Shown: positions 28,907 through 50,903, numbered from the stretch's first letter. The stretch is DNA of 64,000 bases from Microbacterium sp. (GCF_047606385.1 NZ_JASGEL010000091.1:1785-65784), one strand, 5' to 3'. A program made the numbers and translations. The notes: generated from the sequence alone by a model not told the origin.

Positions 28907-29581
28907 CTACCCTGCGGCGCGCCCCGGGGGGAACGCCCGCGCGATGATCGCCAGCGAGAACTCGACGTGCTCCCGCGCGCACTCGCCCGCCCGGTCGACG
29001 TCTCCCGCCAGGATCGCGTCCAGGGTCTCCGCGTGCTGCTCCGCGGACAGCTGGATGTCTGCCGGCGAGTAGAGCATCGCGACCCGGCTGTTGAAGTGGT
29101 AGACCTCGTTGTTGGCCAGGAGCTGCTCGATGCGGGGGTTGTTCGCCGCCCTCACGACGAGACGGTGGAACTGACTGTTCGCCTTCATCCGCGCATCGGC
29201 GGTCAGGTCCGTCGCGGTCGCGCTCTCACGGAAGGCCTCGAGCTCCGCCTTCTGCTCATCGGTGCCACGCGTGGCCGCGAGACGGGCGGCGTACGACTCG
29301 AGCGCCGCACGCACCTCGTAGACCTGCGTGATCTCGTCGTACGCATGCTCGTGCACGACCCATCGGCGGCGGCGGGACTCGATGAGGCCGTCGGCGGCCA
29401 GCCGCTGCAGGGACTCCCGCACCGGCGTCCGGCTCACCTGCAGCCGCTCGGCGATGTCGGCCTCGACGAGGGCCTCGTTCGGGCGCAACGCTCCGTTGAG
29501 GATGTTCTCGCGAAGCTGCCGGTAGACGAAGTCCGTCCGCTTCACGGCGCCCACGCGGCTGTCGACCGCATCCGTCGTCAC
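28907..29581 (-). CDS. GntR-family transcriptional regulator (FCD subfamily)
   Basis: 224 aa. HTH (LVEADIAERLQVSRTPVRESLQRLAADGLI) and an FCD domain. GTG start at 29581 with no obvious RBS, so the transcript may be leaderless. Confidence 0.85.
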   Translation of the reverse strand: MTTDAVDSRVGAVKRTDFVYRQLRENILNGALRPNEALVEADIAERLQVSRTPVRESLQRLAADGLIESRRRRWVVHEHAYDEITQVYEVRAALESYAARLAATRGTDEQKAELEAFRESATATDLTADARMKANSQFHRLVVRAANNPRIEQLLANNEVYHFNSRVAMLYSPADIQLSAEQHAETLDAILAGDVDRAGECAREHVEFSLAIIARAFPPGRAAG

Positions 29582-29598
29582 GGTAACACCAACTCATG

Positions 29599-29609
29599 TT
29601 GCATGCTAA
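29599..29609. promoter_or_regulatory. Island motif TTGCATGCTAA upstream of GntR gene
   Basis: It lies 18 nt upstream of the GntR start. It is flanked by the 11-mer CACGGTAACAC (29579-29589), which is also present at 49868-49878. Confidence 0.4.
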
Positions 29610-29696
29610 CGAGAATACAGAATCACCCCCGACGCCCGTCGGTCGACGTCGAAGTCCGTCATGCGGGCGCGCCGGTGACGCTGCGAGCCGACGGGG

Positions 29697-33812: not shown

Positions 33813-33835
33813 GTGCGCTCTCCGCATCTTCCGAA

Positions 33836-35586: not shown

Positions 35587-35675
35587 TACGCGTCACCAGG
35601 GATGATGAACGACTTCGTATGCAACGCTACACACCAAGGCCGGGACGCGAAACAGTGGAAACACCACTTCTCGTC

Positions 35676-37005: not shown

Positions 37006-38559
37006 CTAGTTCACGGTGATGTCGTCGAAATAGATCCGCTCATCCAGCACGGGCGTGAAGTTCACCCGGTCGGAGACCCCGTAGGCATCGGGCTGCTGGT
37101 ACAGGAACACCGCCGGTCGATCCTCCGAGATGATCGACCAGATCTGCTCGTAGTCCGCCTGCCGCTGGGTGTCGTCCATCTCGGACGCCGCTGCCGTGAT
37201 CAGCGCGTCGACCTCGGGATTCTCGTAGTCGAGCCGACCCACGTTCGCGCTGTTGCCGCCCTGGAACCACGGGACGTCGCTGCTCGAGTCCAGGATCGGG
37301 TCCCCGAGCGCGATCAGCAGACCCTCCTGATTGGTCTTGTTGCTGAACGCGTCCAGATACGCCGTCCCGCTGAGCGTGTCCAGCTGCACGTCGAACCCGA
37401 CGGCGTCGAGCTCGCTCACGATCAGCTGGGCGACCTGGGTGTCCAGGAGGTAACGGTCCGAAGGCGCGGTGATGTGGATCGTGATCGGCTGGCCGCCGCC
37501 GACCTCCTGGACGAGCTCCTTGGCACGGTCCTGGTCGTACACCGAGGTGTTCAGGAGGTCCGGGTTGGCCCCGAAGACGCCCTCCACCGCGCGCTCACGC
37601 AGCGTGGTCGCCTCGCCCTTGAACAGGGTGCTCGTGATCAGGTCCTTGTCGATCGCGAGGTCGATCGCCTCCCGCACGCGCGAGTCCGCGGTGACCCAAG
37701 GGTCGTTCGTGCGCAGGGCGAGCAGCATCACGCGCGTGCTCGGGCCGAGCACGGTCTGCGCGGTGCCGTCGTCGTCGAGCCGATCCCAGTCGGTCGGATC
37801 GACGTCCGTGACGATGTCCGCGCCGCCCGTCAGCAGCTCGCTCACACGCGTCGAGGCCTCGGGGATGGTCCGCACCACCACCTGTGCCCACTTCGGCGTG
37901 TCACCGAAGTAGTTCGACGACGGGCTCAGCGTGATGTGATCGTCCCGCACCCACTCGTCGATCTTGTAGGGACCGGACCCGACGGGGCTCTGGAGGTAGG
38001 CGTCCATCCCCTCGTCCGCGATCAGCTGCTGCGGCAGGATGGAGCCGCCGACCGAGGCGAGCACGCGGAGCATCGTCGGCATCGCGGCCTTCGTCTTGAT
38101 CTCGATCGTGTCGCCGTCCGCGGTCACGGACTCGATGCCGCTGAAGAACGAGTACTGCGTCAGGGTCTGGTCGGTCGCGACGCGCATCAGGGAGTAGACG
38201 ACGTCGTCGCCCGTGAGCGCGCTGCCGTCGGAGAACTTCACGTCGTCTCGCAGCGTGAAGTCCCAGGTGAGGTCGTCCACCTGCTCCCAGTCGGTCGCCA
38301 GGTCGCCGACCGGGTCCAGGGTCTCCGGGTCCAAGGTCACGAGCCTGCTGTAGATGTTGCGGTCGATCCGCTCGCCGTTGATGCTGGGCACCGCGCCCGG
38401 GTCGAGCGTGGTCGTGTCAGCGCTCTGCGCGATGACGAGCTTGCTGTAGTCGCCGGTCTCCGTGCTCGAGCCCACGCCCGCGCAGCCTGCGAGGGCGAGG
38501 GCGGCGGCCACGCCCGCCGCGACGAGCGCGATGCCTCGCCGAGGATGCTTCTTTACCAT
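37006..38559 (-). CDS. ABC transporter substrate-binding lipoprotein, family 5 (peptide/nickel/opine type)
   Basis: 517 aa with lipobox LAGC and an SBP_bac_5 pattern. Confidence 0.9.
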   Translation of the reverse strand: MVKKHPRRGIALVAAGVAAALALAGCAGVGSSTETGDYSKLVIAQSADTTTLDPGAVPSINGERIDRNIYSRLVTLDPETLDPVGDLATDWEQVDDLTWDFTLRDDVKFSDGSALTGDDVVYSLMRVATDQTLTQYSFFSGIESVTADGDTIEIKTKAAMPTMLRVLASVGGSILPQQLIADEGMDAYLQSPVGSGPYKIDEWVRDDHITLSPSSNYFGDTPKWAQVVVRTIPEASTRVSELLTGGADIVTDVDPTDWDRLDDDGTAQTVLGPSTRVMLLALRTNDPWVTADSRVREAIDLAIDKDLITSTLFKGEATTLRERAVEGVFGANPDLLNTSVYDQDRAKELVQEVGGGQPITIHITAPSDRYLLDTQVAQLIVSELDAVGFDVQLDTLSGTAYLDAFSNKTNQEGLLIALGDPILDSSSDVPWFQGGNSANVGRLDYENPEVDALITAAASEMDDTQRQADYEQIWSIISEDRPAVFLYQQPDAYGVSDRVNFTPVLDERIYFDDITVN

Positions 38560-39464
38560 TTCTTTCTTCTCCAGGTTCTTCTTGATGCAGGAACGACACG
38601 AACCGCCTCCGAGATGGCGGCGAGGACTTCGGTACGAGGGGGAACACCTCCTTCACCGGGGACGAGGGTGAAAGGCACGATGTCGCGACTGATCTCCACG
38701 AGCTTCTTCGTGTAGTCGGTCGCGGGGTTCTGGAGGACCACGCCGGCGGGACCGTGCTCGACGACCTTTCCGAGGTTCATGACGACCACGTCGTCGCTGA
38801 TCCGCTCGACCGCGTTCAGCCCGTGGGCGATGAACACGATCGAGAGCCCGAGCCGCTCCTTCAGGTCGATGAGCAGCGCCAGGATCTGCGCCTGGATCGA
38901 GACGTCGAGCGCCGAGACCGCCTCGTCGCACACCAGCACCTTCGGGTTCATCGCCAGCGCGCGCGCGATCGCGATCCGCTGGCGCTGGCCGCCGGAGAAC
39001 TGGTGCGGGTACTTCTCCAACGCCGAGGCGGGCAGCCCCACCATCTCGAGCAGCGAGACGCACCGCTGCACGAAGTCCTGGCTGCGGTCGAAGCGCTCGT
39101 GCCGCAGCGGCTCCCGGAGCAGCGCCTTCACCCTCATCCGCGGGTTCAGCGACGAATAGGGGTCCTGGAAGACCACCTGGATCGCGCGCAGCGCCCGCTG
39201 CGAGGACCGCTTGGCGTGCAGATCGACCGCCGCGCCGTCGAACAGCATCGTTCCCGCGTCGGGAGTCTCCAGTCCCATGATGATGTTGGCGAGCGTGGAC
39301 TTCCCCGACCCGGACTCGCCGATGATCCCGAGCACCTTCCCCCGCCGCAGCACCACGTCGACGTCGTCGAGCGCACGCACCGGCACGCGCTGGAGCCGGT
39401 TCCGCACGTAGAAGGTCTTCACGATGCCCGTCATCTGCAGGATCGGCTGGCTCTCGTCCATCAC
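38553..39464 (-). CDS. ABC transporter ATP-binding protein (DppF/OppF-like)
   Basis: Walker A GESGSGKST, signature FSGGQRQR, Walker B VLVCDEAVSALD, and an oligopeptide-type C-terminal extension. Confidence 0.9.
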   Translation of the reverse strand: MMDESQPILQMTGIVKTFYVRNRLQRVPVRALDDVDVVLRRGKVLGIIGESGSGKSTLANIIMGLETPDAGTMLFDGAAVDLHAKRSSQRALRAIQVVFQDPYSSLNPRMRVKALLREPLRHERFDRSQDFVQRCVSLLEMVGLPASALEKYPHQFSGGQRQRIAIARALAMNPKVLVCDEAVSALDVSIQAQILALLIDLKERLGLSIVFIAHGLNAVERISDDVVVMNLGKVVEHGPAGVVLQNPATDYTKKLVEISRDIVPFTLVPGEGGVPPRTEVLAAISEAVRVVPASRRTWRRKKW

Positions 39465-40285
39465 CGGCCCTCCTCGTCCTCGAGCACCAGGGTCCGGGCC
39501 GTCGCGAGCGACGACGCCGCCAGCAGGCGTCGGGTGTATTCGTGCTGCGGGGCGCGCAGGACGGTGGCCGTCGACCCCTCCTCGACAACCTGCCCGCGGT
39601 ACATGACGATCACCCGCTGGGCGAGCCGGGCGACGACGCCGAGGTCGTGGGTCACGAACAGCAGCGCCGTCCCCCGCCGGTGGGTGAGGTCGAACATCAT
39701 CCGCAGCACCTGGTACTCGATGGTCACGTCCAGCGCCGTGGTCGGCTCGTCGGCGATGAGCAGGCGGGGCGACTTGACCATCGCCATCGCGATCATCGCG
39801 CGCTGGCGCATGCCGCCCGACAGCTCGTGCGGGATCGCGCGGGCGACCCGTTCCGGGTCGCGGATGCCGACCTCGTGGAGGATGTCGAGCACGTCGCGCT
39901 GGCTCACCGAGGTCCCGCCCTCGCGAATCTGCCGGCTGATCGGCATCAGCGGGTTCAGCGCGGTCAACGGCTCCTGGTAGACGATGGAGAGGTCGGTCCG
40001 CAGCACCCGGCGGCGCTTCTGCGCCGACATGCGGACCATGCTCACGCCGTCCCAGCGGATGTCGCCCCCGCTCACGCGCAGCCCCGGGTCGAGCAGGCCC
40101 AGGATGGAGAAGCAGGTCAGGCTCTTGCCCGAGCCCGACTCGCCGACGATGGCGACGCGGTCTCCGGCGTCCATGCTGAACGACACGTTCCGCACGATCG
40201 GCGTGTCCGGCGCATCGACGGTCGAGACGCAGAGGTCGTCCACGACCAGCAACGGTGATGTGGAATCGGTCGTCATCTGCGCCAC
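39461..40285 (-). CDS. ABC transporter ATP-binding protein (DppD/OppD-like)
   Basis: Walker A GESGSGKS, signature LSGGMRQR, Walker B LLIADEPTTALD. Confidence 0.9.
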   Translation of the reverse strand: MAQMTTDSTSPLLVVDDLCVSTVDAPDTPIVRNVSFSMDAGDRVAIVGESGSGKSLTCFSILGLLDPGLRVSGGDIRWDGVSMVRMSAQKRRRVLRTDLSIVYQEPLTALNPLMPISRQIREGGTSVSQRDVLDILHEVGIRDPERVARAIPHELSGGMRQRAMIAMAMVKSPRLLIADEPTTALDVTIEYQVLRMMFDLTHRRGTALLFVTHDLGVVARLAQRVIVMYRGQVVEEGSTATVLRAPQHEYTRRLLAASSLATARTLVLEDEEGR

Positions 40286-40286
40286 C

Positions 40287-41165
40287 TCACAGCGTCGTCT
40301 TCAGTCGAGGGTCGAGCACCGCCCGCAGCCAGTCGCCGACGAACAGCACGCAGACGACGGTGAACGTGATGCACAGGCCGGGGAAGGTGCTCAGCCACCA
40401 CGCGGTCGCCAGGTAGTCGCGTCCGTCAGACAGCATCAGGCCCCAGGAGATGTCCGGCGGCTGGATGCCGACACCGAGGAAGCTCAGCGACGACTCCGTC
40501 ACGATCAGGGTCGCCACGCTCAGCGTCGAGAGCACGACGAAGGTCGGCACGACGTTGGGCAGGATGTGCCGGACCATGATGTACACGTGGCTCGACCCGA
40601 ACGTCCGGGCCGCCTTGATGAACAGGCGCTCGCGGATCTCGAGCACCTCGTTCCTGATCTGCCGCGCATAGATCACCCAACTGGTCAGGCCGAGCACGAT
40701 GATGAGGGTGAGCAGTCCGGGACTCAGGATCGCGAGCACGGCGAGGATCAGCAGGATCGCCGGGATCGAGAGGAGCGCGTCGACGATCCGCATGAGGATC
40801 GCGTCGACGGCTCCGCCGAAGTAGCCCGCGACGATCCCGACCACCAGGCCGATGGCTCCCGACACGACGACGCCGAGCGCGCCCACGACGATCGAGACCT
40901 GCGAGCCGACCATGAGACGAGAGAGGATGTCGCGCCCGAGCTCGTCCGTCCCGAGCAGGTGCCAGCTCGGGCTGGTCGTGAACGGCGGCAGCAGCGCCTG
41001 CACGGGGTCGACGGCCGTCGGGTCGTACGGCGCGATCACCCGGGCGAGCGCCGCGGTCGCGCAGACGATCAACAGGACGACGATGCTCACGCGTGCCGGC
41101 CATGTCATGGACGCGAGCAGCGTGCCCTTGCGCACCACAGGCGCCGAGATGTCCTGTGTGCTCAT
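40287..41165 (-). CDS. ABC transporter permease (DppC-like)
   Basis: 292 aa with 6 TM helices and a BPD_transp_1 EAA-type loop. Confidence 0.9.
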   Translation of the reverse strand: MSTQDISAPVVRKGTLLASMTWPARVSIVVLLIVCATAALARVIAPYDPTAVDPVQALLPPFTTSPSWHLLGTDELGRDILSRLMVGSQVSIVVGALGVVVSGAIGLVVGIVAGYFGGAVDAILMRIVDALLSIPAILLILAVLAILSPGLLTLIIVLGLTSWVIYARQIRNEVLEIRERLFIKAARTFGSSHVYIMVRHILPNVVPTFVVLSTLSVATLIVTESSLSFLGVGIQPPDISWGLMLSDGRDYLATAWWLSTFPGLCITFTVVCVLFVGDWLRAVLDPRLKTTL

Positions 41166-41178
41166 GACCGCGCCTCGC

Positions 41179-42099
41179 TCATCCCTTGACCCCGATCCGG
41201 CGGTCGGCGAGCCGGAACACGACGTCGCCGACGATGTTGACGAGGATGACCATCACCGCGATGACGAAGACACTCGCCTGCACCACCGGCAGGTCCCGGT
41301 TCGACACGGAGTTGACCAGGAGCAGGCCCATGCCCGGCCAGGCGAAGACGGTCTCGGTGACGATGACCCCGCCGAGCAGGCTCGTGAACAGCAGCAGGAT
41401 GATGCTGACGACCGGGACGAAGGCGTTGCGCAGTGCGTGCCCGTACAGGATGACGGCCTCGGGCAGTCCCTTCCCGCGTGCCGTGCGGATGTAGTCCTTG
41501 TTCAGCTCTTCGATGACGCTGGAACGGACGAGCATCATGATCTCCGCGGCCAGGGCGATCGCGATCGACACCGAGGGCAGGATCAGGCTCTGCCAGCTGC
41601 CCGACCCGGAGACGGGGACCAGCCGCAGGGTGACCGCGAACAGGAGGATGAGCATGATCCCCAGCCAGAACGTCGGCATCGCCTTGCCGAAGACCGCGAC
41701 CGAGGAGAGGACCGTGTCGATCTTCTTGCCGCGGTTGACCGCGAGATACACGCCCGAGGGCACGGACAGGACGATCGCGACGACGATTCCCCACACCGCG
41801 AGCGTGAGCGTGACCGGCAGGCGATCGAGGACGAGTCCCAGCGCCGGCTGGTTGTAGCGGTACGAGACACCGAAATCGCCCTGGATCGCGTGCCAGATGT
41901 AGTCGAGGTACTGCACGTACAGCGGCCGGTCCAGGCCGAGGGAGTGCCGCAGGGCCTCGACCTGCTCGGGCGTCGCATGATCGCCCAGCAGGCTCGCGAC
42001 CGGGTCGCCGGCGACGTAAACCAGCAGGAAGACGAGCGTCACGATGATGAACAGCACCGGGACGGCCTCGAGGACCCGCCGGATCACGTATCTCAGCAT
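41179..42099 (-). CDS. ABC transporter permease (DppB-like)
   Basis: 306 aa with the N-terminus MLRYVIRRVLEAVPVLF typical of DppB/OppB. Confidence 0.9.
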   Translation of the reverse strand: MLRYVIRRVLEAVPVLFIIVTLVFLLVYVAGDPVASLLGDHATPEQVEALRHSLGLDRPLYVQYLDYIWHAIQGDFGVSYRYNQPALGLVLDRLPVTLTLAVWGIVVAIVLSVPSGVYLAVNRGKKIDTVLSSVAVFGKAMPTFWLGIMLILLFAVTLRLVPVSGSGSWQSLILPSVSIAIALAAEIMMLVRSSVIEELNKDYIRTARGKGLPEAVILYGHALRNAFVPVVSIILLLFTSLLGGVIVTETVFAWPGMGLLLVNSVSNRDLPVVQASVFVIAVMVILVNIVGDVVFRLADRRIGVKG

Positions 42100-42139
42100 C
42101 TGATGGTCACCCGCTCTCTCATCGCTTCAGCGTACCAGC

Positions 42140-42159
42140 TTGCATGCGAACTTGTCCGC
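42140..42159. promoter_or_regulatory. Conserved 20-nt operator-like module TTGCATGCGAACTTGTCCGC
   Basis: 18/20 identical to 49892-49911. It lies 41 nt upstream of the dppB-like start. On the coding (minus) strand it is followed after 5 nt by the -10-like TACGCT. It abuts the AT palindrome AAAAATTTTT (42160-42169). Confidence 0.45.
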
Positions 42160-42200
42160 AAAAATTTTTCTCAAGTTTCCCGGCCCGTCGGGGACGCGCG

Positions 42201-43316
42201 TCAGCCGAATCGAGCGGGGGCGAGCGCTGTGTCGTCCAGCATCTGATGGCGCCCGAGCATGCGCGCCACGAGGATCTCCGCCGCCGGCAGCGCGTGCATG
42301 AAGCCGTGATGACCGAGTCCGGTGGCCACGTACAGCCCGTCCGTGCCGGGGACGGCGCCGACGATGCCGATGTCGTCCGGGGATGCCGCGCGGTGACCCC
42401 ATTCCGACACGAACACCTGGTCCGCGCGCAGCCCGGGCAGCCGGTGGGTCAACAGGCCGACGGTCCGCTCGGGCTCGGACGCGTCGAAGAACACCGCATC
42501 CTCGCGGTCGGCTCCGCCGATGATCAGCCCCCGCCGGCTCGACACGAAGTACCCGCGCGTGCCCATGTCGAAGACGAGCGGGAGGCGGACGGGCAGGCCG
42601 TGCTGCGGAGCGGTCAGGAAGATCTGCCCCCGCTGGTTCCGGATCGGCGGCACCCACCCGGCCGGCGACAGGGCCGGGATGCTGCCCATGCCGGCGGCGA
42701 CCACGACGGCGTCCGCTGCGATGCCGCCCTCGGCGGCCGTGACTCCCCGCGCGCGTTCGTGGCGGACGTCGACGGCGACGTCGCGACCCTCCACGATGTC
42801 GACGCCATGGCGCTCGCACAGGTCGAGGAGCGACTGCAGGACGGCGGCGGGCGATGCCGTGCCGTCGTGGGCGGTGTACCAGCCGCCGCGGACCCCGTCC
42901 ATGCGCATGCCCGGCACGACCGACTCCAGATCGGCACCCGTCAGCCGCTCGATGGAGCCGCCACCGCCGCGCACGACCTCGGCGATCGACGCCCGCAGCT
43001 CGTCGTGCGCCGGCTCGGTGCTCAGGTAGAGATAGCCGTTCGCCTGGAAGTCGCTTCGCACGTCGTCGCGATCCCGCCACTCGGCCATGATCTGCAGCAT
43101 CCGCAGCGTGAGGGCGACGTTCACCGGCTGCGCGAACTGCGAGCGGATCCCGCCGCCGCCCAGCAGCGATACACCGCCGCCCGGCTGATACCGATCGACG
43201 ACGCAGACCCGCTCGACGCCGGACTCGCGCAGCTGCACCGCCGTGGCCAGACCCATGACGCCGCCGCCGACGATCACGACGTCGTAGCCGCCTCGCGTGT
43301 CCGCGCGCTCAGTCAT
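42201..43316 (-). CDS. FAD-dependent oxidoreductase (DAO family, sarcosine-oxidase-beta-like)
   Basis: 371 aa with dinucleotide fold DVVIVGGGVMGLATAVQL. It overlaps the hyuB stop by 8 nt. Confidence 0.85.
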   Translation of the reverse strand: MTERADTRGGYDVVIVGGGVMGLATAVQLRESGVERVCVVDRYQPGGGVSLLGGGGIRSQFAQPVNVALTLRMLQIMAEWRDRDDVRSDFQANGYLYLSTEPAHDELRASIAEVVRGGGGSIERLTGADLESVVPGMRMDGVRGGWYTAHDGTASPAAVLQSLLDLCERHGVDIVEGRDVAVDVRHERARGVTAAEGGIAADAVVVAAGMGSIPALSPAGWVPPIRNQRGQIFLTAPQHGLPVRLPLVFDMGTRGYFVSSRRGLIIGGADREDAVFFDASEPERTVGLLTHRLPGLRADQVFVSEWGHRAASPDDIGIVGAVPGTDGLYVATGLGHHGFMHALPAAEILVARMLGRHQMLDDTALAPARFG

Positions 43317-45300
43317 GGCTCATCCCGGAGAACGCGTGCTCCACCATCTGCACCGTGATGACGGTCTCGCCGGTGGCGGTCAGCACCGTGTTCAGCCGCT
43401 CCAGCACCCGCTGGTTGACGGTCTCGCGGACGACGTGCGGGTACGCCCGCAGCTCGGTGACGAGCCGGCGTTCCGCACCGGCGCCCCACCGCGCGTCGTG
43501 CGCCTCCCGCCCGGCGCCGTAGCTGAACCCCGGCTCTCCGTCGGCCGAGCCCGGTGTCGCGCGGCGGCCGCGCTCGGCGGCGGTCGCGTCGTCGTCCACG
43601 ACGCCGGCGTCGTCGACGACGACGCCGTACTGCTCCCGGGCCTGCCTCGCGTCGAGCAGGCCCGCGTCGACGTCGGCCGCGACCAGGTGCGCAGGCCGGT
43701 CCTGCGGACGCCCGATGGCGCCGCCCGTCGGCGTGCGGAAGCTGATCGTGTCGCCGTAGCCGAGCGGCACCAGGTCCACCCGCCCGATTGCCTGTTCCCG
43801 CTCGGTGCCCGCGTTGAGGACGACGTCGCCGCGAGCGCCCGGGGCGCCGCCCGCCACTCCCCACGGCTGGAAGTGGAAGCGCTCGAGACCACGGGTCGCG
43901 ACCTCCACGCCGTCCTGCAGCGAACGCATCCGGAACTCGACGCCGACGCCGCCGCGATGCTCGCCTGGCGCGGAGGAGCCCGGAAGCAGGCCGTACTCCT
44001 CGACGAGGATGGGCATCTCCGCCTCGAGCACCTCGTTCGGGACGTTCGCCAGGTGGCCCCCGCCGCCGAACGTGGATCCGTCGACGCCGTCCAGGTGGGG
44101 ACGCGCCCCGGAGCCGCCGAGGAACGGCTGCGCCACCGCCACCTTCTGCGTGCCGGTGTGCTCGTCCATCGCGGCCACCAGCACGATCGCGGCGGAGCCG
44201 GGCCCCGCGGTGGGGAACAGGTCGGGCATGGCCTGGACGAGACAGCCGAGGATGCAGTCGTGGACGCGCATCGCGGTCGCGTAGCGCGCGCCGCACGCCG
44301 CCTCGGGCCCGGGGTGCAGGAGCGTGCCCTCGGGCGCCCGGAAGTGGATCGACCGCACCATTCCCGAGTTGTAGGGGATCGTCGGCTCCATCGTGCGCAG
44401 CCAGTTCCGGATCGGGACCGTGACCTGGTAGTGCACGGGGTGGCCGTAGGTCGGCAGGTTCAGCGCGGCGCGCACCTCGACGTCCGTGCCCTCGAAGTCC
44501 AGGTAGAGGTCGGAGCCGCGGGACTCGAGCGTGCACTCGATGCGGACCGGACGCGCGCCCGGGGCGTCGCGCTCCATGTAGTCGACGAAGCGATAGACGC
44601 CGTCGGGGATCCGCGAGAGCAGGTCCCTCGCGCGGTGCTCCGCGAGGTCCATCACGTCGCCGATCCCCTGCCGCACCGCCTCGGCGCCGTAGCGATCGAC
44701 GACCTCCAGGATCCGCTGCTCGCCGCGGTTGAGACCGGCGATCTGGGCCTGGATGTCGCCCCAGAACGGCTCGGGGATGCGGGAGTTGAGCTTGATGATG
44801 TCCCTGACCGCCGTGTTGAGCACGCCGCCTTCGTACAGCCGCACGGGCGGGATCCGCAGGCCCTCGTGGTAGATGTCGCGGCTGGACATCGCGATGCTGC
44901 CCGGCACGACACCGCCGACGTCTGACGAGTGGATGAAGGACATCGCGTAGCCCACGACCTCGTCCTCGACGAAGATCGCCTTCCACAGGAAGACGTCGGG
45001 GAGGTGGGTGGCGAGCCCCCCGGTCGAGAACGGGTCGTTGGCGATGCCGACGTCGCCCGGCCGGTAGGGCGCGAGCGCCTCGATCGCCTTCATCGTCGGC
45101 AGTCCCACCATCGAGTTGTCGGCGCGGTCCGTGGCGGTGGCGAAGACCTCGCCGTCGGGCGCGACCAGTGCGCACCCGAAGTCCGCGGTCTCCTTGATGT
45201 AGACCGTGAACGCCGTCTGCAGGACGACCGCGGTCATCTCTTCGGCGATCGACTTGAACCGGTTCTTCAGGATCTCGGTCTGGACGGCCTTGGTGGTCAC
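43309..45300 (-). CDS. hyuB: Hydantoinase B/oxoprolinase-family protein
   Basis: 663 aa with a typical HyuB N-terminus (EILKNRFKSIAEEMTAVVLQTAFTVYIKETADFGCAL). Confidence 0.9.
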   Translation of the reverse strand: MTTKAVQTEILKNRFKSIAEEMTAVVLQTAFTVYIKETADFGCALVAPDGEVFATATDRADNSMVGLPTMKAIEALAPYRPGDVGIANDPFSTGGLATHLPDVFLWKAIFVEDEVVGYAMSFIHSSDVGGVVPGSIAMSSRDIYHEGLRIPPVRLYEGGVLNTAVRDIIKLNSRIPEPFWGDIQAQIAGLNRGEQRILEVVDRYGAEAVRQGIGDVMDLAEHRARDLLSRIPDGVYRFVDYMERDAPGARPVRIECTLESRGSDLYLDFEGTDVEVRAALNLPTYGHPVHYQVTVPIRNWLRTMEPTIPYNSGMVRSIHFRAPEGTLLHPGPEAACGARYATAMRVHDCILGCLVQAMPDLFPTAGPGSAAIVLVAAMDEHTGTQKVAVAQPFLGGSGARPHLDGVDGSTFGGGGHLANVPNEVLEAEMPILVEEYGLLPGSSAPGEHRGGVGVEFRMRSLQDGVEVATRGLERFHFQPWGVAGGAPGARGDVVLNAGTEREQAIGRVDLVPLGYGDTISFRTPTGGAIGRPQDRPAHLVAADVDAGLLDARQAREQYGVVVDDAGVVDDDATAAERGRRATPGSADGEPGFSYGAGREAHDARWGAGAERRLVTELRAYPHVVRETVNQRVLERLNTVLTATGETVITVQMVEHAFSGMSHD

Positions 45301-47342
45301 GCGTCATCCCTCGCTTTCGCGACAATGTTCAACTCGGAGTCGATCACGACCGAGAAGGTCGGCGGCACGAAGATCGTCGTGTCGTCGGATTCGATGACCG
45401 CCGGCCCGCAGAACGCGTCCTGCGGGGCGAGCAGCGATCGCTCGTAGATCGCGGCGACGACGATCTCGCCGTGATAGGCGACCGGACGCCGGGTCGGCTC
45501 GGCGCTGCGCTGCCCGTCGGCGTCCACGCGGCGGGAGACGACCGGCACGGCGTTCGGCGCCACGAGCGTCACCTGGGCGGCGACGATCTCCACCGCCGCG
45601 TCTTCGTCGGCGATGCCGTATGCCCTGCGGTAGTCGCGGTGGAAGGCCTCGACCACCTCCGACACCCGGGTGGTGCCGCCGCTCTCCAGCCGCGGCAGAT
45701 CCACGTCCACCGTGAACGTCTGGCCGACGTAGCGCACCTCGGCTTTGCGGAGATAGTGGGCGTCCGCGTTCGGCGAGAGCCGGAACCACTCGCGAGCAGC
45801 CGCCTCGAGCTCGCCGAAGACCTCCTCGAGGGCGTCGTCGGAGACCGTGCGCGCCTCGACGTTGAGGCTGCGGACGACATCGTGCCGGAAGTCCGCCACC
45901 AACCCGCCCTGCGCGCACAGCGTGCCGGGCCGGTTGGGGATGATCACCTTGTCGAAGCCGATGACCTCGGCCACGAGCATGGCCATCGTCGGGCCCGCCC
46001 CGCCGTAGGCGAACAGGGCGTAGTCGGACGCCGACAGCCCGCGCAGCGCCAGCAGCGGCACGAGCTGGGCGTGCATGTTCGCGATGGCGATGTCGAGGAT
46101 GGCGCTGGACACCGATGGCACGTCGAGATCGAGCTCGTCGCCGATCGTGGAGAGCGCCGACTCCGCCGCGGCCGGCGAGAGCTCGAGCCGGCCGTCGAGG
46201 AAGCGACGAGGATTCACGATGCCGGCGACGAGGAGGGCGTCGGTGACCGTCGCCTGGGTGCCGCCGCGCCGATAGCAGGCGGGACCGGGCGTCGATCCCG
46301 CGCTCGCCGGGCCGACCTGGAGGTTCCCGCCGGGCCCGACGGTCGCGATCGAACCGCCGCCGGCGCCGATCGCGGAGATGTCCACCGTCGGGAGGATGAG
46401 CGGAAGCGCCCCGATGCGGGCCTCCGTCGAGTACGGGATCTCGCCGTCGATGATCGACACGTCCGCGCTGGTGCCGCCGATGTCGAGCGTGACGATGCGC
46501 GACTCGCCGGCGAGCCTCGCGATGTGCGTCGCCGCCGTCACGCCGGCGGCGGGACCGGACAGCAGCATGTGGACGGGGTTGTCCTTCGCCGCCTCCACAC
46601 CCATCAGCCCGCCGTTCGAGCGCGTCGTCAGGATCGGCGCCTGGATGCCCAGTTCCCGCATCCCCTCACGGAGAGCCGTGAAATACGTCCGCATCCGATC
46701 GCCGACGTACGCGTTCATCACCGTGATCAGGCCGCGTTCGTACTCGCGCTGCACGGGCCAGACGCTGCTGGAGACGCTGACGAACAGGTCCGGATACGTG
46801 CTCTCGATGATCTCGCGGACCGCGTCCTCGTGCCGCGGGTCGCGGTAGGAGTGCATCAGGCACACGGCGATCGCCTGGACGCCTGCGGCATGCAGCGACG
46901 CGACCTGCCGGAGCACCTCTTCCTCGTCGACCGGCCGCAGCTCGTCCCCGGAGGCGAGCAGGCGCGCGCTGATCTCCCGCACCAGACGGCGCGGCACGAG
47001 GAGGGGCTGCTTGACCGAGAACAGGTCCGACGGGTTCTCCAGTTTGAGCCGCGCCATCTCCAGCATGTCCGCGAAGCCGCTGCTGACGATCAGGCCCGTC
47101 GCCGCGCCGCCGCGCTCGATCAGCGTGTTGAGCGCCAGGGTCGTGCCGTGGGCGAAGTAGACGACCTCGGCGGCGTCCACGCCGTGGTCGCGCAGGAGGG
47201 TCCGCAGACCGTCGAGAACGCCCTCGGCGGGATCGTCGGGGGTGGTGAAGACCTTGAAGGCGATCACCTCGCCGGAGGCATCGTCGATCGCTGCGAGATC
47301 GGTGAACGTCCCACCGATGTCGACGCCGACACGTATGGGCAT
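45297..47342 (-). CDS. hyuA: Hydantoinase A/oxoprolinase-family protein (ATP-binding subunit)
   Basis: 681 aa with an ASKHA-type N-terminus (VGVDIGGTFTDL). 4-nt overlap with hyuB. Confidence 0.9.
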   Translation of the reverse strand: MPIRVGVDIGGTFTDLAAIDDASGEVIAFKVFTTPDDPAEGVLDGLRTLLRDHGVDAAEVVYFAHGTTLALNTLIERGGAATGLIVSSGFADMLEMARLKLENPSDLFSVKQPLLVPRRLVREISARLLASGDELRPVDEEEVLRQVASLHAAGVQAIAVCLMHSYRDPRHEDAVREIIESTYPDLFVSVSSSVWPVQREYERGLITVMNAYVGDRMRTYFTALREGMRELGIQAPILTTRSNGGLMGVEAAKDNPVHMLLSGPAAGVTAATHIARLAGESRIVTLDIGGTSADVSIIDGEIPYSTEARIGALPLILPTVDISAIGAGGGSIATVGPGGNLQVGPASAGSTPGPACYRRGGTQATVTDALLVAGIVNPRRFLDGRLELSPAAAESALSTIGDELDLDVPSVSSAILDIAIANMHAQLVPLLALRGLSASDYALFAYGGAGPTMAMLVAEVIGFDKVIIPNRPGTLCAQGGLVADFRHDVVRSLNVEARTVSDDALEEVFGELEAAAREWFRLSPNADAHYLRKAEVRYVGQTFTVDVDLPRLESGGTTRVSEVVEAFHRDYRRAYGIADEDAAVEIVAAQVTLVAPNAVPVVSRRVDADGQRSAEPTRRPVAYHGEIVVAAIYERSLLAPQDAFCGPAVIESDDTTIFVPPTFSVVIDSELNIVAKARDDA

Positions 47343-47378
47343 GCGAGGCCTTTCTGATAGCTGGAGGAGTGGTTCTCG

Positions 47379-47966
47379 TCAGACCGCCCAGGCGGCTGCC
47401 GCCTCGGGCTGGCAGCGAGGATCGCCGCCTTCGCCGCCGCGGTAGTCCGCGACCTGGCCGTCGATGACGTAGCCGGTGTCGGTGGTCATGCTCCGACACC
47501 ACTCCGGCGAGACGCACGAGCGGGCTCCGTACGATTCGACGGCGGCCATGATGACGGGCAGGCCGGCTCGCACCTCGGCCGCGCTCCGCTCGGGGTCGGC
47601 GAGCCGGACGCCGGCGGTCTCGGCCATCGCGGTGATGTCCTCGAGCTGCCTCGCCGCCCAGCCGTGGGGATCGGCGTTCAGCGCGTCGTCGAAGTTCCCG
47701 TACTCCGGCTCCATCCCCGGGAACCGGGGGTGGAAGTGCGCCGACCTGCCGTTGCCCTTCGGCAGTCCGACGGTGTCGAAGAGGTCCGCGCGCCAGAAGA
47801 TCCCGTCGATGAGGATCGGCTGGGCGACCGAGCGGCTCCCGCGCATCACGATCGGCGTGACGGTGCGCAGGTCGATGCGCGCCCCGTGCTCTTCATGACC
47901 GGTGCCGACCTCGTACCAGTGCCGGACCATGACGACGACCTCGGAGAAGTGGAACAGCGTTTGCAT
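47379..47966 (-). CDS. Hypothetical protein (195 aa), no family recognised
   Basis: I prefer ATG 47966 (MQTLFHF..., RBS GGAGG 9 nt upstream) over 47981. It ends 36 nt before hyuA. Real-protein composition, with His/Cys-containing segments (HWYEVGTGHEEH, HFHPRFPG, C-x5-C). Confidence 0.5.
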   Translation of the reverse strand: MQTLFHFSEVVVMVRHWYEVGTGHEEHGARIDLRTVTPIVMRGSRSVAQPILIDGIFWRADLFDTVGLPKGNGRSAHFHPRFPGMEPEYGNFDDALNADPHGWAARQLEDITAMAETAGVRLADPERSAAEVRAGLPVIMAAVESYGARSCVSPEWCRSMTTDTGYVIDGQVADYRGGEGGDPRCQPEAAAAWAV

Positions 47967-48041
47967 TTCTCGAACCTCCATTTCGGGCGCGTGCGTGCCC
48001 TGTGTTCTTCCTTGGGCGACGGCTGGCCTGATGGCGGGCCG

Positions 48042-49817
48042 TCAATAGACGGGTCGGACGACCTCGCCGGACTCGGGGACGTCCCATGCCGAGACGGGCG
48101 GGAGCTGGTCGATGACGTGAGGCACCCGGATGCTCAGGAATGTCGGCCCCTGCCGGTCGCGCGCCGCCCGGAGCTCGATCTCCAGCTCGTCGAGGGTGCG
48201 GACGTCCGCTCCCGGCACGCCGCATGCCTCCGCCACCTTCACGGCGTCGATCGCGCCGGGGGTCACCCCGAAATAGCGCTGGCCCATGTACAGGTGCTGG
48301 AGCATCTTTATCCAACCGTAGCTCGCGTTGTCGAACTCGATGAACAGCACCGGCAGCTGATACCGGGCCGCGGTCTCCAGCTCGCCGCAGGCCATCGCGA
48401 AACTGCCGTCGGCGGTGAAGCAGACCACGCGGCCTCCGGTGCCGATGGCGGCCCCCATGGCGGCCGGGATCGCATATCCCATCGCGCCGTGTCCTCGCGG
48501 CAGCACCACCGTGCGGCCCGGCTTGTCGAGCTCCCAGAACGAGGCGAGGTACGGCGTCGGCGTTCCCGGGTCGCCCACGGCGACGACCTCGGAGCCGAAC
48601 ACCGCCTGCACGCGCGTGACGACGTCGGCCGGCGAGAGCTTGCCGGCCTCGGTCGAGGTCGGGACGCCGGCCTCCTTCCAGGCGCGCCTCGCGGCGGCCA
48701 CCTCCGCGACGACCGCGTCGCGGTCCACGGCGAGGTCTACGCCCTCGAGCGCGTCGAGGAGCTGGCGGAGCACGGTGCGGCTGTCTCCGACGACCGCCAG
48801 GGAGCCCGGATAGTTCCTCCCGGCGCGGGTGGCGTCGATGTCGATGTGGATCACGGTCACGTCCGGTTCCCGGCGCGGCGCCCGCCAGCTGTCGGTGTTG
48901 GTCGCGTTCGCGCGCGTTCCGACGAAGATCACGGTGTCCGCGGATGCGACGTAGTCGAACGCGTAGCGGCGGGCGCCGTTGTTGCCGACCACGCCGAGCG
49001 AGTAGGGATCGTCGTCGGCGATCACGCCTTTGCCGTGGATGCTCGTGGCCACCGGGGCGCCGACACGCTCGGCGAGGGCCCGCAGCTCGGCGGCGGCGGA
49101 CGAGGTGTGCACGCCGGAGCCGGCGACGATCGCGGGTCGCTTCGCGCGGGCGATCGCCGCGACCGCGGCCTGCACGACATCGGTGGCCGCGGCGGGCCGC
49201 TCGGCGGGAAGGTCTTCGACCGAGGGAATGGCGGCGTCGGTCAGCTCGTCGCGGGCGATGGTGTGGTCGAGCACGTCCTCGGGGAAGATCAGCACCACCG
49301 GGGCGGGGCGACCCGTCGTCGCGGCGCGCAGCGCGTCGGCGACCGCCGCGGGGATGTCCGCCGGCCGTTCCACCACCCGCGAGAACTTGGTCACGGCGCT
49401 GAAGAGCTTCACCTGGTCGATCTCGGTGAGAGCCCCGGAGCCGCGGCTGGCCGTATGGATGTCCGAGGTGATGAGCAGGACGGGAATCCCCGCCGCGTAC
49501 GACTCTCCCATCGAGCCGACCGCATAGCTGCACCCGCCACCGCTGGAGACCTCCGCGACGCCCACGCGACCCGTCGTGCGCGAATAGGCGTCGGCCATCG
49601 CGAGCGCGTGACGCTCGTCTCGGGTGAGCACGTGGACGATGTCGTCGCGGTGGTCGTTCAACGCGTCGTAGAACACGACCCCGGTGTCGCCGGGAAGGCC
49701 GAAGATCTCCTTGACCCCCGCCGAGACCAGCGTCTCCACGAGCAGATCGGCGCCTCGCACCTGTCCGTCGCTCTCGGTCGTGCGCCGCTCTGCCGGTGCC
49801 GTCACTGTCACATCCAC
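48042..49817 (-). CDS. Thiamine-pyrophosphate-dependent enzyme (acetolactate-synthase-like)
   Basis: 591 aa with an N-terminal Pyr domain (GVKEIFGLPGD) and a C-terminal PP domain with TADGSFAM...N. GTG start with RBS GAGGAG. Confidence 0.9.
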   Translation of the reverse strand: MDVTVTAPAERRTTESDGQVRGADLLVETLVSAGVKEIFGLPGDTGVVFYDALNDHRDDIVHVLTRDERHALAMADAYSRTTGRVGVAEVSSGGGCSYAVGSMGESYAAGIPVLLITSDIHTASRGSGALTEIDQVKLFSAVTKFSRVVERPADIPAAVADALRAATTGRPAPVVLIFPEDVLDHTIARDELTDAAIPSVEDLPAERPAAATDVVQAAVAAIARAKRPAIVAGSGVHTSSAAAELRALAERVGAPVATSIHGKGVIADDDPYSLGVVGNNGARRYAFDYVASADTVIFVGTRANATNTDSWRAPRREPDVTVIHIDIDATRAGRNYPGSLAVVGDSRTVLRQLLDALEGVDLAVDRDAVVAEVAAARRAWKEAGVPTSTEAGKLSPADVVTRVQAVFGSEVVAVGDPGTPTPYLASFWELDKPGRTVVLPRGHGAMGYAIPAAMGAAIGTGGRVVCFTADGSFAMACGELETAARYQLPVLFIEFDNASYGWIKMLQHLYMGQRYFGVTPGAIDAVKVAEACGVPGADVRTLDELEIELRAARDRQGPTFLSIRVPHVIDQLPPVSAWDVPESGEVVRPVY

Positions 49818-49891
49818 GTCTCAGCGTCTCCTCGTCGGCCGGTGGTGCGTCCGATCGACGCGCTGTCCACGGTAACACATTGTAGACCACT

Positions 49892-49911
49892 TTGCATGCG
49901 AAGTTGTGCGC
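49892..49911. promoter_or_regulatory. Conserved 20-nt operator-like module TTGCATGCGAAGTTGTGCGC
   Basis: 18/20 identical to 42140-42159. On the minus strand it is followed after 7 nt by the -10-like TACAAT (49884-49879) and then by GTGTTACCGTG (49878-49868). It lies 75 nt upstream of the TPP-enzyme start. Confidence 0.45.
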
Positions 49912-49946
49912 GGATCTGTGCCGCCGAGCATGGCGCGGCCCTGCGC

Positions 49947-50747: not shown

Positions 50748-50826
50748 GATTGCTCCTTCATTCGATGGGTCGAGGCATGCGCTGGCGGACGCGCTCGGCG
50801 CTGCCGGAGGTCGCATGCTCATTACT

Positions 50827-50836
50827 TGCATGCAAA
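50827..50836. promoter_or_regulatory. Perfect palindrome TTGCATGCAA (island motif)
   Basis: It lies 80 nt upstream of the TIM-barrel gene start. Two more GCATGC hexamers occur within 60 bp (50814-50819 and 50775-50780). Confidence 0.4.
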
Positions 50837-50903
50837 AAAGCATACAGAAAGTGACGATCGGAGGTCGCGGAATGCCGGTCCGCCGCAGCGACCCGGCGTT
50901 CGA

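What the first reader, a model, noticed from the sequence alone, without database searches (positions are those of the whole stretch)
42129..49911. Two operons of the island share an 18/20-nt module placed identically next to a -10-like hexamer
TTGCATGCGAACTTGTCCGC (42140-42159, upstream of the peptide-type ABC operon) and TTGCATGCGAAGTTGTGCGC (49892-49911, upstream of the TPP-enzyme/hyuAB operon) differ at only two positions, both C/G swaps.

Read on the coding (minus) strand, both are GCGsACAAsTTCGCATGCAA. Each is followed after 5-7 nt by a TAnnnT hexamer: TACGCT at 42134-42129 and TACAAT at 49884-49879. This is the position expected for a repressor operator overlapping the -35/spacer region.

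The 42-kb copy also abuts a perfect AAAAATTTTT palindrome (42160-42169), which is very unusual in ~70% GC DNA.
Basis: seen in the sequence. Interest (0 to 1): 0.65.

Follow-up and report, generated by a model that had tools for sequence, protein, structure and literature searches.

The report
GntR repressor operators across a catabolic island
The shared 20-base module is real and is most likely the DNA site where a GntR-family regulator encoded in the same gene island binds to switch off at least seven nearby promoters, an ordinary but neatly resolved case of local gene control.

Summary
They are the two best copies of a larger set, not an isolated pair.

- **Unit.** A 12-bp palindrome, TTYGCATGCRAA, occurs seven times in the window with at most 2 mismatches. 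All seven lie in the 8.6% of the window that is non-coding, all between 23.9 and 50.9 kb, and each is upstream of a gene or operon.
- **Regulator.** Orthologues of the island's GntR/FCD regulator (28907-29581) sit beside orthologues of the TPP-enzyme, DAO, hyuAB and ABC genes in other actinobacteria. The same units, often as 12-bp tandems, lie on or just after their promoters. No PucR gene is present in those loci.
- **Precedent.** A published DNase I footprint of the Mycobacterium smegmatis GntR regulator Ms0535 covers CCTTGCATGCATTCTTGCATGCAAGG. That is two TTGCATGCA units 12 bp apart.

Best reading: tandem operators for an effector-released GntR/FCD repressor that overlap the core promoters. 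A second, previously unnoticed GntR/FCD paralogue (23318-23968) has its own related palindromes. Binding and transcription starts are untested. This is a new member of a known kind, of modest interest.

The parts
49891..49902 (.). Site T, strong unit TTTGCATGCGAA. It matches the palindrome TTYGCATGCRAA perfectly and lies upstream of the TPP-enzyme/hyuAB/DAO operon.
   Evidence: The identical 13-mer TTTGCATGCGAAG lies upstream of the closest GntR1 homologue, L102.
49903..49914 (.). Site T, weak second unit GTTGTGCGCGGA (7 of 12), exactly 12 bp from the strong unit.
   Evidence: offset +12 has the highest mean score of all offsets tested.
49879..49884 (-). TACAAT, a -10-like hexamer 6 nt downstream (in the gene's direction) of the strong unit.
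   Evidence: Read from the sequence. No -35 match was found. The transcription start is not mapped.
42139..42150 (.). Site A, strong unit CTTGCATGCGAA (1 mismatch), upstream of the peptide-type ABC transporter operon.
42151..42162 (.). Site A, weak second unit CTTGTCCGCAAA (8 of 12), 12 bp from the strong unit.
42129..42134 (-). TACGCT, a -10-like hexamer 4 nt from the strong unit.
   Evidence: Read from the sequence. The transcription start is not mapped.
42160..42169 (.). AAAAATTTTT. It overlaps the end of the weak unit and would sit at about -38 to -47 from the inferred start. Its role is unresolved; an UP-like or bent DNA element is possible.
   Evidence: It has no counterpart at site T and is not part of an RNA hairpin.
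50825..50848 (.). Site X: CTTGCATGCAAA plus AAAGCATACAGA in tandem, upstream of or at the 5' end of the xylose-isomerase-like TIM-barrel gene. The second unit contains TATGCT on the gene strand (50844-50839). A third, 9-of-12 unit lies at 50810-50821.
29598..29621 (.). Site G: GTTGCATGCTAA plus CGAGAATACAGA in tandem, 16 nt upstream of the GntR1 start codon, an autoregulatory position. The second unit contains TATTCT on the gene strand (29617-29612).
   Evidence: Sites G and X match at 20 of 26 positions.
28852..28875 (.). Site D: ATTGCATAGTTC plus TTTGTGTGCAAA in tandem, upstream of the second DAO-family oxidoreductase / aldo-keto reductase operon.
35614..35625 (.). Site C: TTCGTATGCAAC, upstream of the acyl-CoA-dehydrogenase-like gene.
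23967..23978 (.). Site O1: ATTGCATGCAAT, a perfect 12-bp palindrome overlapping the start codon of the second GntR/FCD gene. It is of the GntR2 type (ATTRCATGYAAT).
   Evidence: It is conserved in L095 (GntR2 92% identical) and has an equivalent in L103.
24085..24106 (.). Site O2: GGCAGATTACATGCAATCTGCC, a 22-bp palindrome on the 2OG-oxygenase side of the divergent region.
   Evidence: It is identical in L095, and L103 has CTAATTACATGTAATTAG at the same place.
28907..29581 (-). GntR1: a GntR/FCD regulator of 224 aa, the proposed binder of sites A, T, C, G, X and D.
   Evidence: Pfam GntR plus FCD. Orthologues sit beside TPP-enzyme orthologues. The DNA-contact residues E40, R51, T52 and R55 are invariant.
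23318..23968 (-). GntR2: a second GntR/FCD regulator of 216 aa, 32% identical to GntR1. It is probably the binder of O1 and O2.
42201..49817 (-). Operon downstream of site T: TPP enzyme, a 200-aa protein of unknown function, hyuA, hyuB and a DAO-family oxidoreductase.
37006..42099 (-). Operon downstream of site A: two permeases, two ATPases and a family-5 solute-binding protein.

Best explanation
The 20-nt module is a tandem operator for the island's own GntR/FCD-family regulator, GntR1 (28907-29581).

**Anatomy.**
- The unit is a 12-bp palindrome, TTYGCATGCRAA, of the size bound by one winged-helix dimer.
- At sites A and T a near-perfect unit is followed 12 bp later by a degenerate unit (TTGTsCGC...). 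This is why 18 of 20 bases agree.
- If the TAnnnT hexamers are the -10 elements, the strong unit is centred near -23 and the weak unit near -35.

**Proposed mechanism (inferred).** Bound regulator would occlude RNA polymerase. An unidentified metabolite of the pathway would bind the metal-containing FCD domain and release the regulator, de-repressing the genes.

**Regulon.** GntR1-type sites also lie upstream of five other units:
- the xylose-isomerase-like gene
- gntR1 itself
- the DAO2 operon
- the acyl-CoA-dehydrogenase-like gene
- the ABC operon

Together with the TPP/hyuAB operon, these make a local regulon of six GntR1-type sites. The paralogous regulator GntR2 has its own related palindromes at 23967 and 24090.

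**Shown.** The motif, its confinement to promoter DNA, the 12-bp tandem arrangement, its co-occurrence with GntR1 orthologues, and its match to a footprinted GntR operator.

**Inferred.** Which protein binds, the sign of regulation, the transcription starts and the effector.
For: 1. **Beyond chance.** 2 matches against 0.01 expected for the 20-mer and 0 expected for the 26-mer. The 11-mer core with up to 1 mismatch gives 5 hits against 0.37 expected.
2. **Confined to promoter DNA.** With up to 2 mismatches to TTYGCATRCRAA there are 7 sites in 5.5 kb of non-coding DNA and 0 in 58.5 kb of coding DNA.
3. **Tandem units.** Offset +12 has the highest mean score of all offsets: A 8 of 12, T 7, X 7, G 6, C 6. 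Only 1.8% of background 12-mers reach 7.
4. **Synteny.** GntR1 orthologues (50-55% identical) are adjacent to TPP-enzyme orthologues in L009-L014, L018, L025, L049, L093 and L094. L093 (Streptosporangium) also carries hyuAB, the xylose-isomerase-like gene, Dpp-type ABC genes and two DAO genes.
5. **Same motif at those operon starts.**
   - L094: CACAACTTCGCATGCGAAG. This shares 15 consecutive bases with site T.
   - L093: TTTGCATGCAAA and TTCGCATGCATC.
   - L010: GCATGC, GCATCC, TTGCATACAA and GGATGC at 11-13-bp steps.
   - L014: CTCGCATACAAT plus CCGGCATGCAAG.
   - L018 and L049: CTGCATGCGAsCTTGCATACAG, directly upstream of gntR.
   - L102 (69% identical, the closest homologue): TTTGCATGCGAA plus GACGTATACTTT.
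   - Sources.
6. **Repression geometry elsewhere.** In L010 the units start right after a TTGACG-17-TATGCT promoter. In L014 the -10 of TTGACG-18-TACAAT lies inside a unit.
7. **Enrichment in the clade.** Hits with up to 1 mismatch number 11 against 4.7 expected in GntR1-clade loci, but 4 against 4.6 in more distant loci. About nine of the eleven lie in non-coding DNA or at gene 5' ends.
8. **Footprinted precedent.** The GntR/FadR-subfamily regulator Ms0535 protects CCTTGCATGCATTCTTGCATGCAAGG, 18 bp upstream of its own gene. EMSA shows one shift per unit (PMC4609117).
9. **Structural analogue.**
   - The best PDB hit is Atu1419 (6z74). It is a repressor that binds ATGTATACAT sites which overlap the -10 or lie between -10 and -35.
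   - Its contact residues Glu34, Arg45, Thr46 and Arg49 align with E40, R51, T52 and R55, which are invariant in GntR1 orthologues.
   - The guanine read by Arg45 corresponds to the invariant G4/C9 of the 22 collected units.
   - Sources.
10. **Not an RNA element.** Neither intergenic region folds better than its shuffles.
Against: - No binding, expression or transcription-start data exist for this organism. No sequencing runs were found.
- Ms0535, the only footprinted regulator with this motif, was reported as an activator.
- No -35 match accompanies the TAnnnT hexamers. The promoters are therefore inferred.
- The exact 20-mer occurs in no related genome. The 8 hits in 185,579 genomes all lie in unrelated bacteria, about the number chance would give by my own estimate.
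- A second FCD regulator, GntR2, is encoded nearby with a similar palindrome. Cross-binding cannot be excluded.
- Many GntR1-clade metagenomic loci show no site. Most of these are short contigs or lack the operon start.
- Homology between GntR1 and Ms0535 could not be tested, because the Ms0535 sequence was not obtainable here.
Confidence: 0.7

Rival explanations
1. The same sites are bound by GntR1 (or GntR2), but the regulator acts as an activator. It would recruit RNA polymerase to promoters that lack a -35 element, as reported for Ms0535.
For: Ms0535 binds an almost identical tandem operator and was reported to activate its operon positively. Sites A and T have no recognisable -35 hexamer. 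The weak unit would be centred near -35, where class II activators sit.
Against: The strong unit would lie in the spacer, centred near -23. In L010 and L014 the units lie on or just after the -10 of consensus promoters that need no activator. Read by eye, the unit in L094 follows a TTGACA-17-CACACT promoter; the tool scan did not call that promoter. Most characterised FCD regulators of catabolic clusters, including the closest solved one, Atu1419, are repressors.
Confidence: 0.12
2. The paralogue GntR2 (23318-23968), alone or together with GntR1, is the protein that binds sites A and T.
For: GntR2 is also a GntR/FCD protein. Its start codon overlaps a perfect ATTGCATGCAAT palindrome. GntR2-clade loci carry GCATGC- or ACATGT-centred palindromes.
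Against: GntR2 orthologues travel with a 2OG oxygenase and an amidohydrolase, not with the TPP, hyuAB or ABC genes. Their conserved sites read ATTRCATGYAAT. Sites A, T and C carry the TGCGAA half-site typical of GntR1-clade loci (L094, L018, L049, L102). Every TPP-linked locus encodes a GntR1-type regulator only.
Confidence: 0.12
3. The module is the operator of the island's PucR/GAF regulator (32043-33989).
For: The gene lies inside the island between motif-bearing promoters.
Against: No PucR homologue is present in any orthologous cluster that carries the motif. No site lies in the 360-nt non-coding stretch upstream of the PucR gene. A short 12-bp palindrome in tandem with a footprinted GntR precedent fits GntR, not the known PucR boxes (the latter from my own knowledge).
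Confidence: 0.03
4. The similarity has no function. It would be chance, a remnant of a duplicated promoter segment, or an RNA-level element such as a terminator or leader.
For: Only two copies share the full 20-mer, and that 20-mer is not found in other genomes.
Against: Chance is excluded by the shuffles. The similarity is confined to 26 nt with unrelated flanks. The unit recurs in seven promoters here and in orthologous promoters elsewhere. No RNA structure is detectable and no terminator was found.
Confidence: 0.03

Closest known systems
Ms0535 (MSMEG_0535) operator of Mycobacterium smegmatis, a GntR/FadR-subfamily, VanR-like regulator (PMC4609117)
   Same: The footprinted site CCTTGCATGCATTCTTGCATGCAAGG is two TTGCATGCA units 12 bp apart. 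The unit sequence and the tandem spacing match sites A, T, D, G and X. It lies 18 bp upstream of the regulator's own start codon; site G lies 16 bp upstream of gntR1. EMSA shows stepwise occupancy of the two units.
   Different: Ms0535 was reported as an activator with a single genomic target, an MFS permease operon. Here there are at least seven sites in front of catabolic and transport operons, and their positions suggest repression. The second unit here is degenerate rather than identical. Protein homology to Ms0535 was not tested.
Atu1419 of Agrobacterium fabrum, an FCD/VanR-type repressor with crystal structures on DNA (PDB 6z74, 6za0 and related; PMC7797058)
   Same: It is the best solved-structure match to GntR1. 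It binds a short palindrome, ATGTATACAT, with the same nTGyATrCAn layout. The essential guanine corresponds to the invariant G4 here. Its contact residues align with invariant residues of GntR1. Its operators overlap the -10 or lie between -10 and -35. It represses its own gene and neighbouring catabolic genes, and it carries a metal-containing FCD effector domain.
   Different: Its core is GTATAC rather than GCATGC. Its sites are 109-190 bp apart and are bridged by a tetramer through DNA looping, not adjacent at 12 bp. Sequence similarity is only at family level (E = 4e-15).
FadR, PdhR, LldR and DgoR-type GntR operators (TnGTnnnACnA; for example TTGTAnTACAA for DgoR, from my own knowledge)
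   Same: They are dimeric winged-helix regulators that bind a short palindrome on a promoter and are released by a metabolite.
   Different: The central bases differ (GC/GC against GT/AC). More distant homologues fetched here do carry TTGTATACAA in their loci, often just upstream of the gntR gene. This suggests that the GCATGC core is a clade-specific variant.

Membership tests
Operator of a GntR/FCD (FadR-subfamily, VanR-like) regulator | A short palindrome of about 10-12 bp with the nTGnnnnCAn layout and an essential G/C pair three or four bases from the centre | tested here: met
   The consensus is (T/C)T(T/C)GCATGC(A/G)A(A/G). G4 and C9 are invariant in 22 units from the window, the orthologous loci and Ms0535. 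This corresponds to G3/C8 of the Atu1419 site.
Operator of a GntR/FCD (FadR-subfamily, VanR-like) regulator | A cognate GntR/FCD regulator gene is encoded in the same locus and carries a site in its own upstream region | tested here: met
   GntR1 (Pfam GntR plus FCD) has site G 16 nt upstream of its start. The same holds in L018 and L049; in L102 the site lies about 360 nt upstream.
Operator of a GntR/FCD (FadR-subfamily, VanR-like) regulator | Motif and regulator co-occur across genomes (phylogenetic footprint) | tested here: met
   Hits with up to 1 mismatch number 11 against 4.7 expected in GntR1-clade loci, and 4 against 4.6 in distant loci.
Operator of a GntR/FCD (FadR-subfamily, VanR-like) regulator | The regulator binds the site specifically, and an effector releases it | not testable with these tools
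   This needs EMSA or footprinting with purified protein. Only the conserved DNA-contact residues and the invariant N135/H139/H183/H205, read here as FCD metal ligands, could be checked.
Ms0535-type tandem operator | Two TTGCATGCA units in direct succession, 12 bp apart | tested here: met
   Offset +12 is the best-scoring offset at A, T, X, G and C, and offset -12 at D. In the Ms0535 footprint the units start at positions 3 and 15.
Ms0535-type tandem operator | The binding protein is an orthologue of Ms0535 | not tested
Ms0535-type tandem operator | Positive regulation of the target operon | tested here: inconclusive
   The positions of the sites relative to promoters favour repression (and sites A and T). 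There are no expression data.
PucR-family operator | Co-occurrence of the motif with a PucR-type regulator | tested here: not met
   tblastn finds no PucR homologue in any motif-bearing orthologous locus. No site lies upstream of the window's PucR gene.
Sigma-70-type core promoter at sites A and T | -35 and -10 hexamers with 16-18 nt spacing, and a mapped transcription start | tested here: inconclusive
   The consensus scan finds no full promoter in 41000-51000. Only the TAnnnT hexamers are present, and many actinobacterial promoters lack a -35 (own knowledge). No RNA data could be found.

The most novel reading that the evidence does not exclude
Two paralogous FCD regulators, GntR1 and GntR2, have related but distinguishable palindromes: TTYGCATGCRAA and ATTRCATGYAAT. 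Together they would form a cross-talking two-tier circuit. That circuit would govern a 27-kb catabolic island for a still unknown nitrogen compound. The island's enzymes are a hydantoinase/caprolactamase-like HyuAB, a TPP-dependent decarboxylase-like enzyme and DAO oxidases. None of these reaches any curated family cut-off. The adjacent 12-bp tandem units would impose cooperative dimer-dimer binding on one DNA face. That differs from the looping tetramer of Atu1419.
Probability: 0.3. Interest if true: 0.45.

Novelty: new member of a known kind. Interest (0 to 1): 0.33.

Why it matters
It turns an anonymous sequence coincidence into a testable local regulon: one regulator, one 12-bp unit and at least seven promoters. 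This links genes 18 kb apart into a single pathway. It also supplies a handle, the GntR1 effector, for finding the substrate of a conserved but uncharacterised actinobacterial gene cluster (TPP enzyme, DAO, HyuAB, ABC transporter). The work further suggests that the TTGCATGCA tandem operator described once in M. smegmatis is used more widely by a clade of FCD regulators. Beyond that, it is ordinary bacterial transcriptional control.

Tried and rejected
- **Exact look-ups of window proteins**. The source contig is not retrievable, so orthologous regions from near-identical strains could not be aligned.
- **Public sequencing runs** for 41000-50900. None were found, so there is no evidence on transcription starts.
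- **Scan of 185,579 genomes for TTGCATGCGAANTTGTNCGC**. It gave 8 hits, all in unrelated bacteria, about what chance would give by my own estimate.
- **Palindromised 16-mer weight matrix from non-window sites**. Sites X, T and A were the top hits. The AT-poor background inflated the null scores, so I dropped it in favour of plain mismatch counts.
- **Enrichment at up to 2 mismatches over whole loci**. There was none, because that threshold is too loose outside promoter DNA.
- **Sigma-54 -12 element (TTGCA) and ARG box (TGCAT-N4-ATGCA).** I considered both from memory. Both were rejected on strand or spacing, and because Actinobacteria are not known to have sigma-54.
- **RNA structure or terminator**. 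None was found.
- **NCBIfam naming of the enzymes**. Nothing reaches a curated cut-off, so the pathway substrate stays unknown.
- **Gene call 22011-23438 (+).** My first gene list had this call, which is probably wrong. The real genes there are on the minus strand: GntR2, followed by an amidohydrolase-like gene.


Full report
**1. The observation**

A search with the degenerate 20-mer and up to three mismatches returns only these two, against 0.01 expected from dinucleotide shuffles.

The similarity runs six bases further, as ACCAnnTTGCATGCGAAnTTGTnCGC. It then stops. An alignment of the two whole intergenic regions shows no other alignable stretch.

The hexamers TACGCT and TACAAT are present on the gene strand. 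Their distance from the module differs by 2 nt. AAAAATTTTT is at 42160-42169.

**2. Setting**

GC3-based gene calling and Pfam scans show one long run of minus-strand genes:

- PutA-like, P5C reductase and NAD-glutamate dehydrogenase
- a xylose-isomerase-like TIM-barrel gene
- site T
- TPP enzyme, a 200-aa protein of unknown function, hyuA, hyuB and a DAO oxidoreductase
- site A
- two ABC permeases, two ATPases and a family-5 binding protein
- an MFS transporter and an acyl-CoA-dehydrogenase-like gene
- a PucR/GAF regulator
- a four-carbon-acid-kinase-like gene and an L-threonate-dehydrogenase-like gene
- GntR/FCD regulator GntR1
- a second DAO gene, an aldo-keto reductase and further genes

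Both modules therefore sit in short gaps between same-strand genes (101 and 129 nt). Neither gap folds better than its shuffles as RNA. No terminator was found.

**3. It is not a pair**

The 11-mer core with one mismatch hits five places against 0.37 expected. Nearly every TTGCAT in the window is intergenic.

Read as a 12-bp palindrome, TTYGCATGCRAA, there are seven sites with at most two mismatches. Allowing GCATAC as well, the count is seven in 5.5 kb of non-coding DNA and none in 58.5 kb of coding DNA.

| Site | Position | Upstream of |
|---|---|---|
| O1 | 23967 | a second GntR gene, divergent from a 2OG oxygenase |
| D | 28864 | DAO2 operon |
| G | 29598 | gntR1 |
| C | 35614 | acyl-CoA-dehydrogenase-like gene |
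| A | 42139 | ABC operon |
| T | 49891 | TPP/hyuAB operon |
| X | 50825 | xylose-isomerase-like gene |

**4. Why 18 of 20 bases agree**

I scored the 12-mer at every offset from each strong unit. Offset +12 has the highest mean score: A 8 of 12, T 7, X 7, G 6, C 6. Site D has its partner at -12. Only 1.8% of background 12-mers reach 7.

Sites G and X form a second look-alike pair, matching at 20 of 26 positions. Their second unit, ...ATACAGA, carries a TAnnnT hexamer on the gene strand (TATTCT and TATGCT).

**5. Which protein**

*No close relatives.* The TPP enzyme has no close relative in the protein database; the best hit is 58% identical. The exact 20-mer occurs in no related genome. Conservation therefore had to be sought at the level of regulator and motif.

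*Synteny.* Homologues of GntR1 (50-55% identical) repeatedly share contigs with TPP-enzyme homologues. Fetching those loci confirmed the adjacency.

- Streptosporangium sp. NPDC051022 (L093) has one operon:
  - a creatinase-like gene, then ABC ATPases and a family-5 binding protein
  - hyuA, hyuB, a xylose-isomerase-like gene and the TPP enzyme
  - permeases, then DAO, GntR and DAO
- Streptomyces sp. AJS327 (L094) and several metagenomic contigs have an ABC transporter, DAO, the TPP enzyme and GntR.
- None of these loci encodes a PucR homologue.

*Motif at the operon starts*:

- L093 has TTCGCATGCATC and the perfect TTTGCATGCAAA, 24 bp apart.
- L094 has CACAACTTCGCATGCGAAG. This shares 15 consecutive bases with site T read on the gene strand (CACAACTTCGCATGCAAAG).
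- L010 has four GCATnC-type units at 11-13-bp steps.
- L014 has CTCGCATACAAT plus CCGGCATGCAAG.
- L018 and L049 have CTGCATGCGAsCTTGCATACAG directly upstream of gntR.
- L102, the closest homologue at 69% identity, has TTTGCATGCGAA plus GACGTATACTTT.

*Enrichment.* Over all clade loci, hits with at most one mismatch number 11 against 4.7 expected. About nine of the eleven lie in non-coding DNA or at gene 5' ends. More distant GntR loci show no excess. Several of those distant loci instead carry TTGTATACAA.

**6. Sign of regulation**

In L010 the units begin immediately after a TTGACG-17-TATGCT promoter. In L014 the -10 of a TTGACG-18-TACAAT promoter lies inside a unit. Read by eye, the unit in L094 follows TTGACA-17-CACACT; the tool scan did not call that promoter.

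In the window, taking the TAnnnT hexamers as -10 elements puts the strong unit near -23 and the weak unit near -35. At G and X the units cover the -10 and the start. All of these are positions from which a bound protein blocks RNA polymerase. This geometry is inference, because no transcription start is mapped.

**7. What is known**

*Ms0535.* A full-text search for the palindrome found one paper (PMC4609117). The M. smegmatis GntR/FadR-subfamily regulator Ms0535 protects CCTTGCATGCATTCTTGCATGCAAGG, 18 bp upstream of its own gene. Each half gives one EMSA shift. Counting bases, this is two TTGCATGCA units 12 bp apart, the same architecture as here. That study called Ms0535 an activator with a single target.

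*Atu1419.* The best solved-structure match to GntR1 is Atu1419 (6z74).

- It is a repressor that binds ATGTATACAT palindromes. These overlap the -10 or lie between -10 and -35.
- Its Arg45 reads the essential guanine.
- Glu34, Arg45, Thr46 and Arg49 align with E40, R51, T52 and R55 of GntR1. These are invariant among 40 homologues.
- N135, H139, H183 and H205 are also invariant. I read these as the FCD metal ligands.
- In 22 collected units, G4 and C9 are invariant.

**8. A second regulator**

While inspecting site O1 I found that its ATG starts a 216-aa GntR/FCD protein, GntR2 (23318-23968). It had been hidden by a long antisense ORF. It is 32% identical to GntR1.

Its homologues travel with a 2OG oxygenase and an amidohydrolase. 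They include:

- a Microbacterium MAG, 92% identical, which hints at the window's genus
- a 64%-identical contig
- Mycolicibacterium species, 51% identical

The divergent region keeps two palindromes of the form ATTRCATGYAAT, while the bases between them drift. Sites A, T and C carry the TGCGAA half-site typical of GntR1-clade loci. Every TPP-linked locus matches GntR1 far better than GntR2.

I therefore assign A, T, C, G, X and D to GntR1, and O1 and O2 to GntR2. Cross-binding is not excluded.

**9. Verdict**

This is a local regulon of at least seven tandem operators for an island-encoded GntR/FCD regulator, most likely a repressor.

It is a new member of a known kind: a GntR/FCD operator of the Ms0535-type tandem form. 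Three things remain open:

- the role of the A5T5 tract
- the substrate of the pathway, since no enzyme reaches an NCBIfam cut-off
- a second shared motif, GTGTTACC, described under the items noticed in passing

Noticed in passing
window 29579-29589, 49868-49878, 24022-24041: CACGGTAACAC is shared exactly by the gntR1 start region and the TPP promoter, just after TACAAT (2 matches against 0.37 expected). The core GGTAACAC also occurs in the gntR2 / 2OG-oxygenase divergent region. There it forms a GTAAC-N6-GTTAC inverted repeat that is fully conserved in the 92%-identical Microbacterium MAG locus L095. It may be a second regulator's site or an initiator region.
   Followed up: partly
window 23318-23968 (-): A 216-aa GntR/FCD regulator lies hidden under a long antisense ORF. 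My first-pass call of a + strand gene at 22011-23438 is probably wrong. By synteny with L095, L103 and L096, the gene downstream of gntR2 is a minus-strand amidohydrolase-like gene (about 22104-23321). The 2OG oxygenase probably starts near 24167, not 24038.
   Followed up: partly
window 32043-33989 (-) and 33990-34350: A PucR-type regulator with a GAF domain is preceded by about 360 nt of non-coding DNA that carries no GCATGC-type unit. Its targets are unknown; the motif-free PutA / P5C reductase / GDH operon is one possibility.
   Followed up: no
window 50904-58486 (-): A PutA-like proline dehydrogenase/aldehyde dehydrogenase fusion, a P5C reductase and a 1077-aa NAD-glutamate dehydrogenase form an apparent operon. 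No operator unit lies upstream of it (58487-58600). It seems to lie outside the GntR regulon although it is contiguous with it.
   Followed up: no
window 42201-50843; L093 1-20032: The set TPP enzyme, DAO, HyuA/HyuB, xylose-isomerase-like protein, Dpp-type ABC transporter and GntR is conserved in Streptosporangium, where a creatinase-like gene is added. None of the window proteins reaches a curated NCBIfam cut-off. The nearest families are caprolactamase, acetolactate synthase / 5-guanidino-2-oxopentanoate decarboxylase, and glycine oxidase. The pathway is conserved but uncharacterised.
   Followed up: partly
window 42160-42169: AAAAATTTTT is very unusual in DNA of 71% G+C. It overlaps the end of the weak operator unit and has no counterpart at site T. 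It could be an UP-like or bending element; its role is unexplained.
   Followed up: partly
L094 6729-6905 and 9822-10000: In Streptomyces sp. AJS327, the intergenic spacers inside the orthologous operon are filled with short tandem repeats (GGCTCAC-type and CCCGTC-type).
   Followed up: no
window 20649-21926 (-): A 425-aa protein has a weak C-terminal match to the REase_MTES_1575 / DUF559 endonuclease-like domain. It lies at the low-coordinate edge of the island.
   Followed up: no
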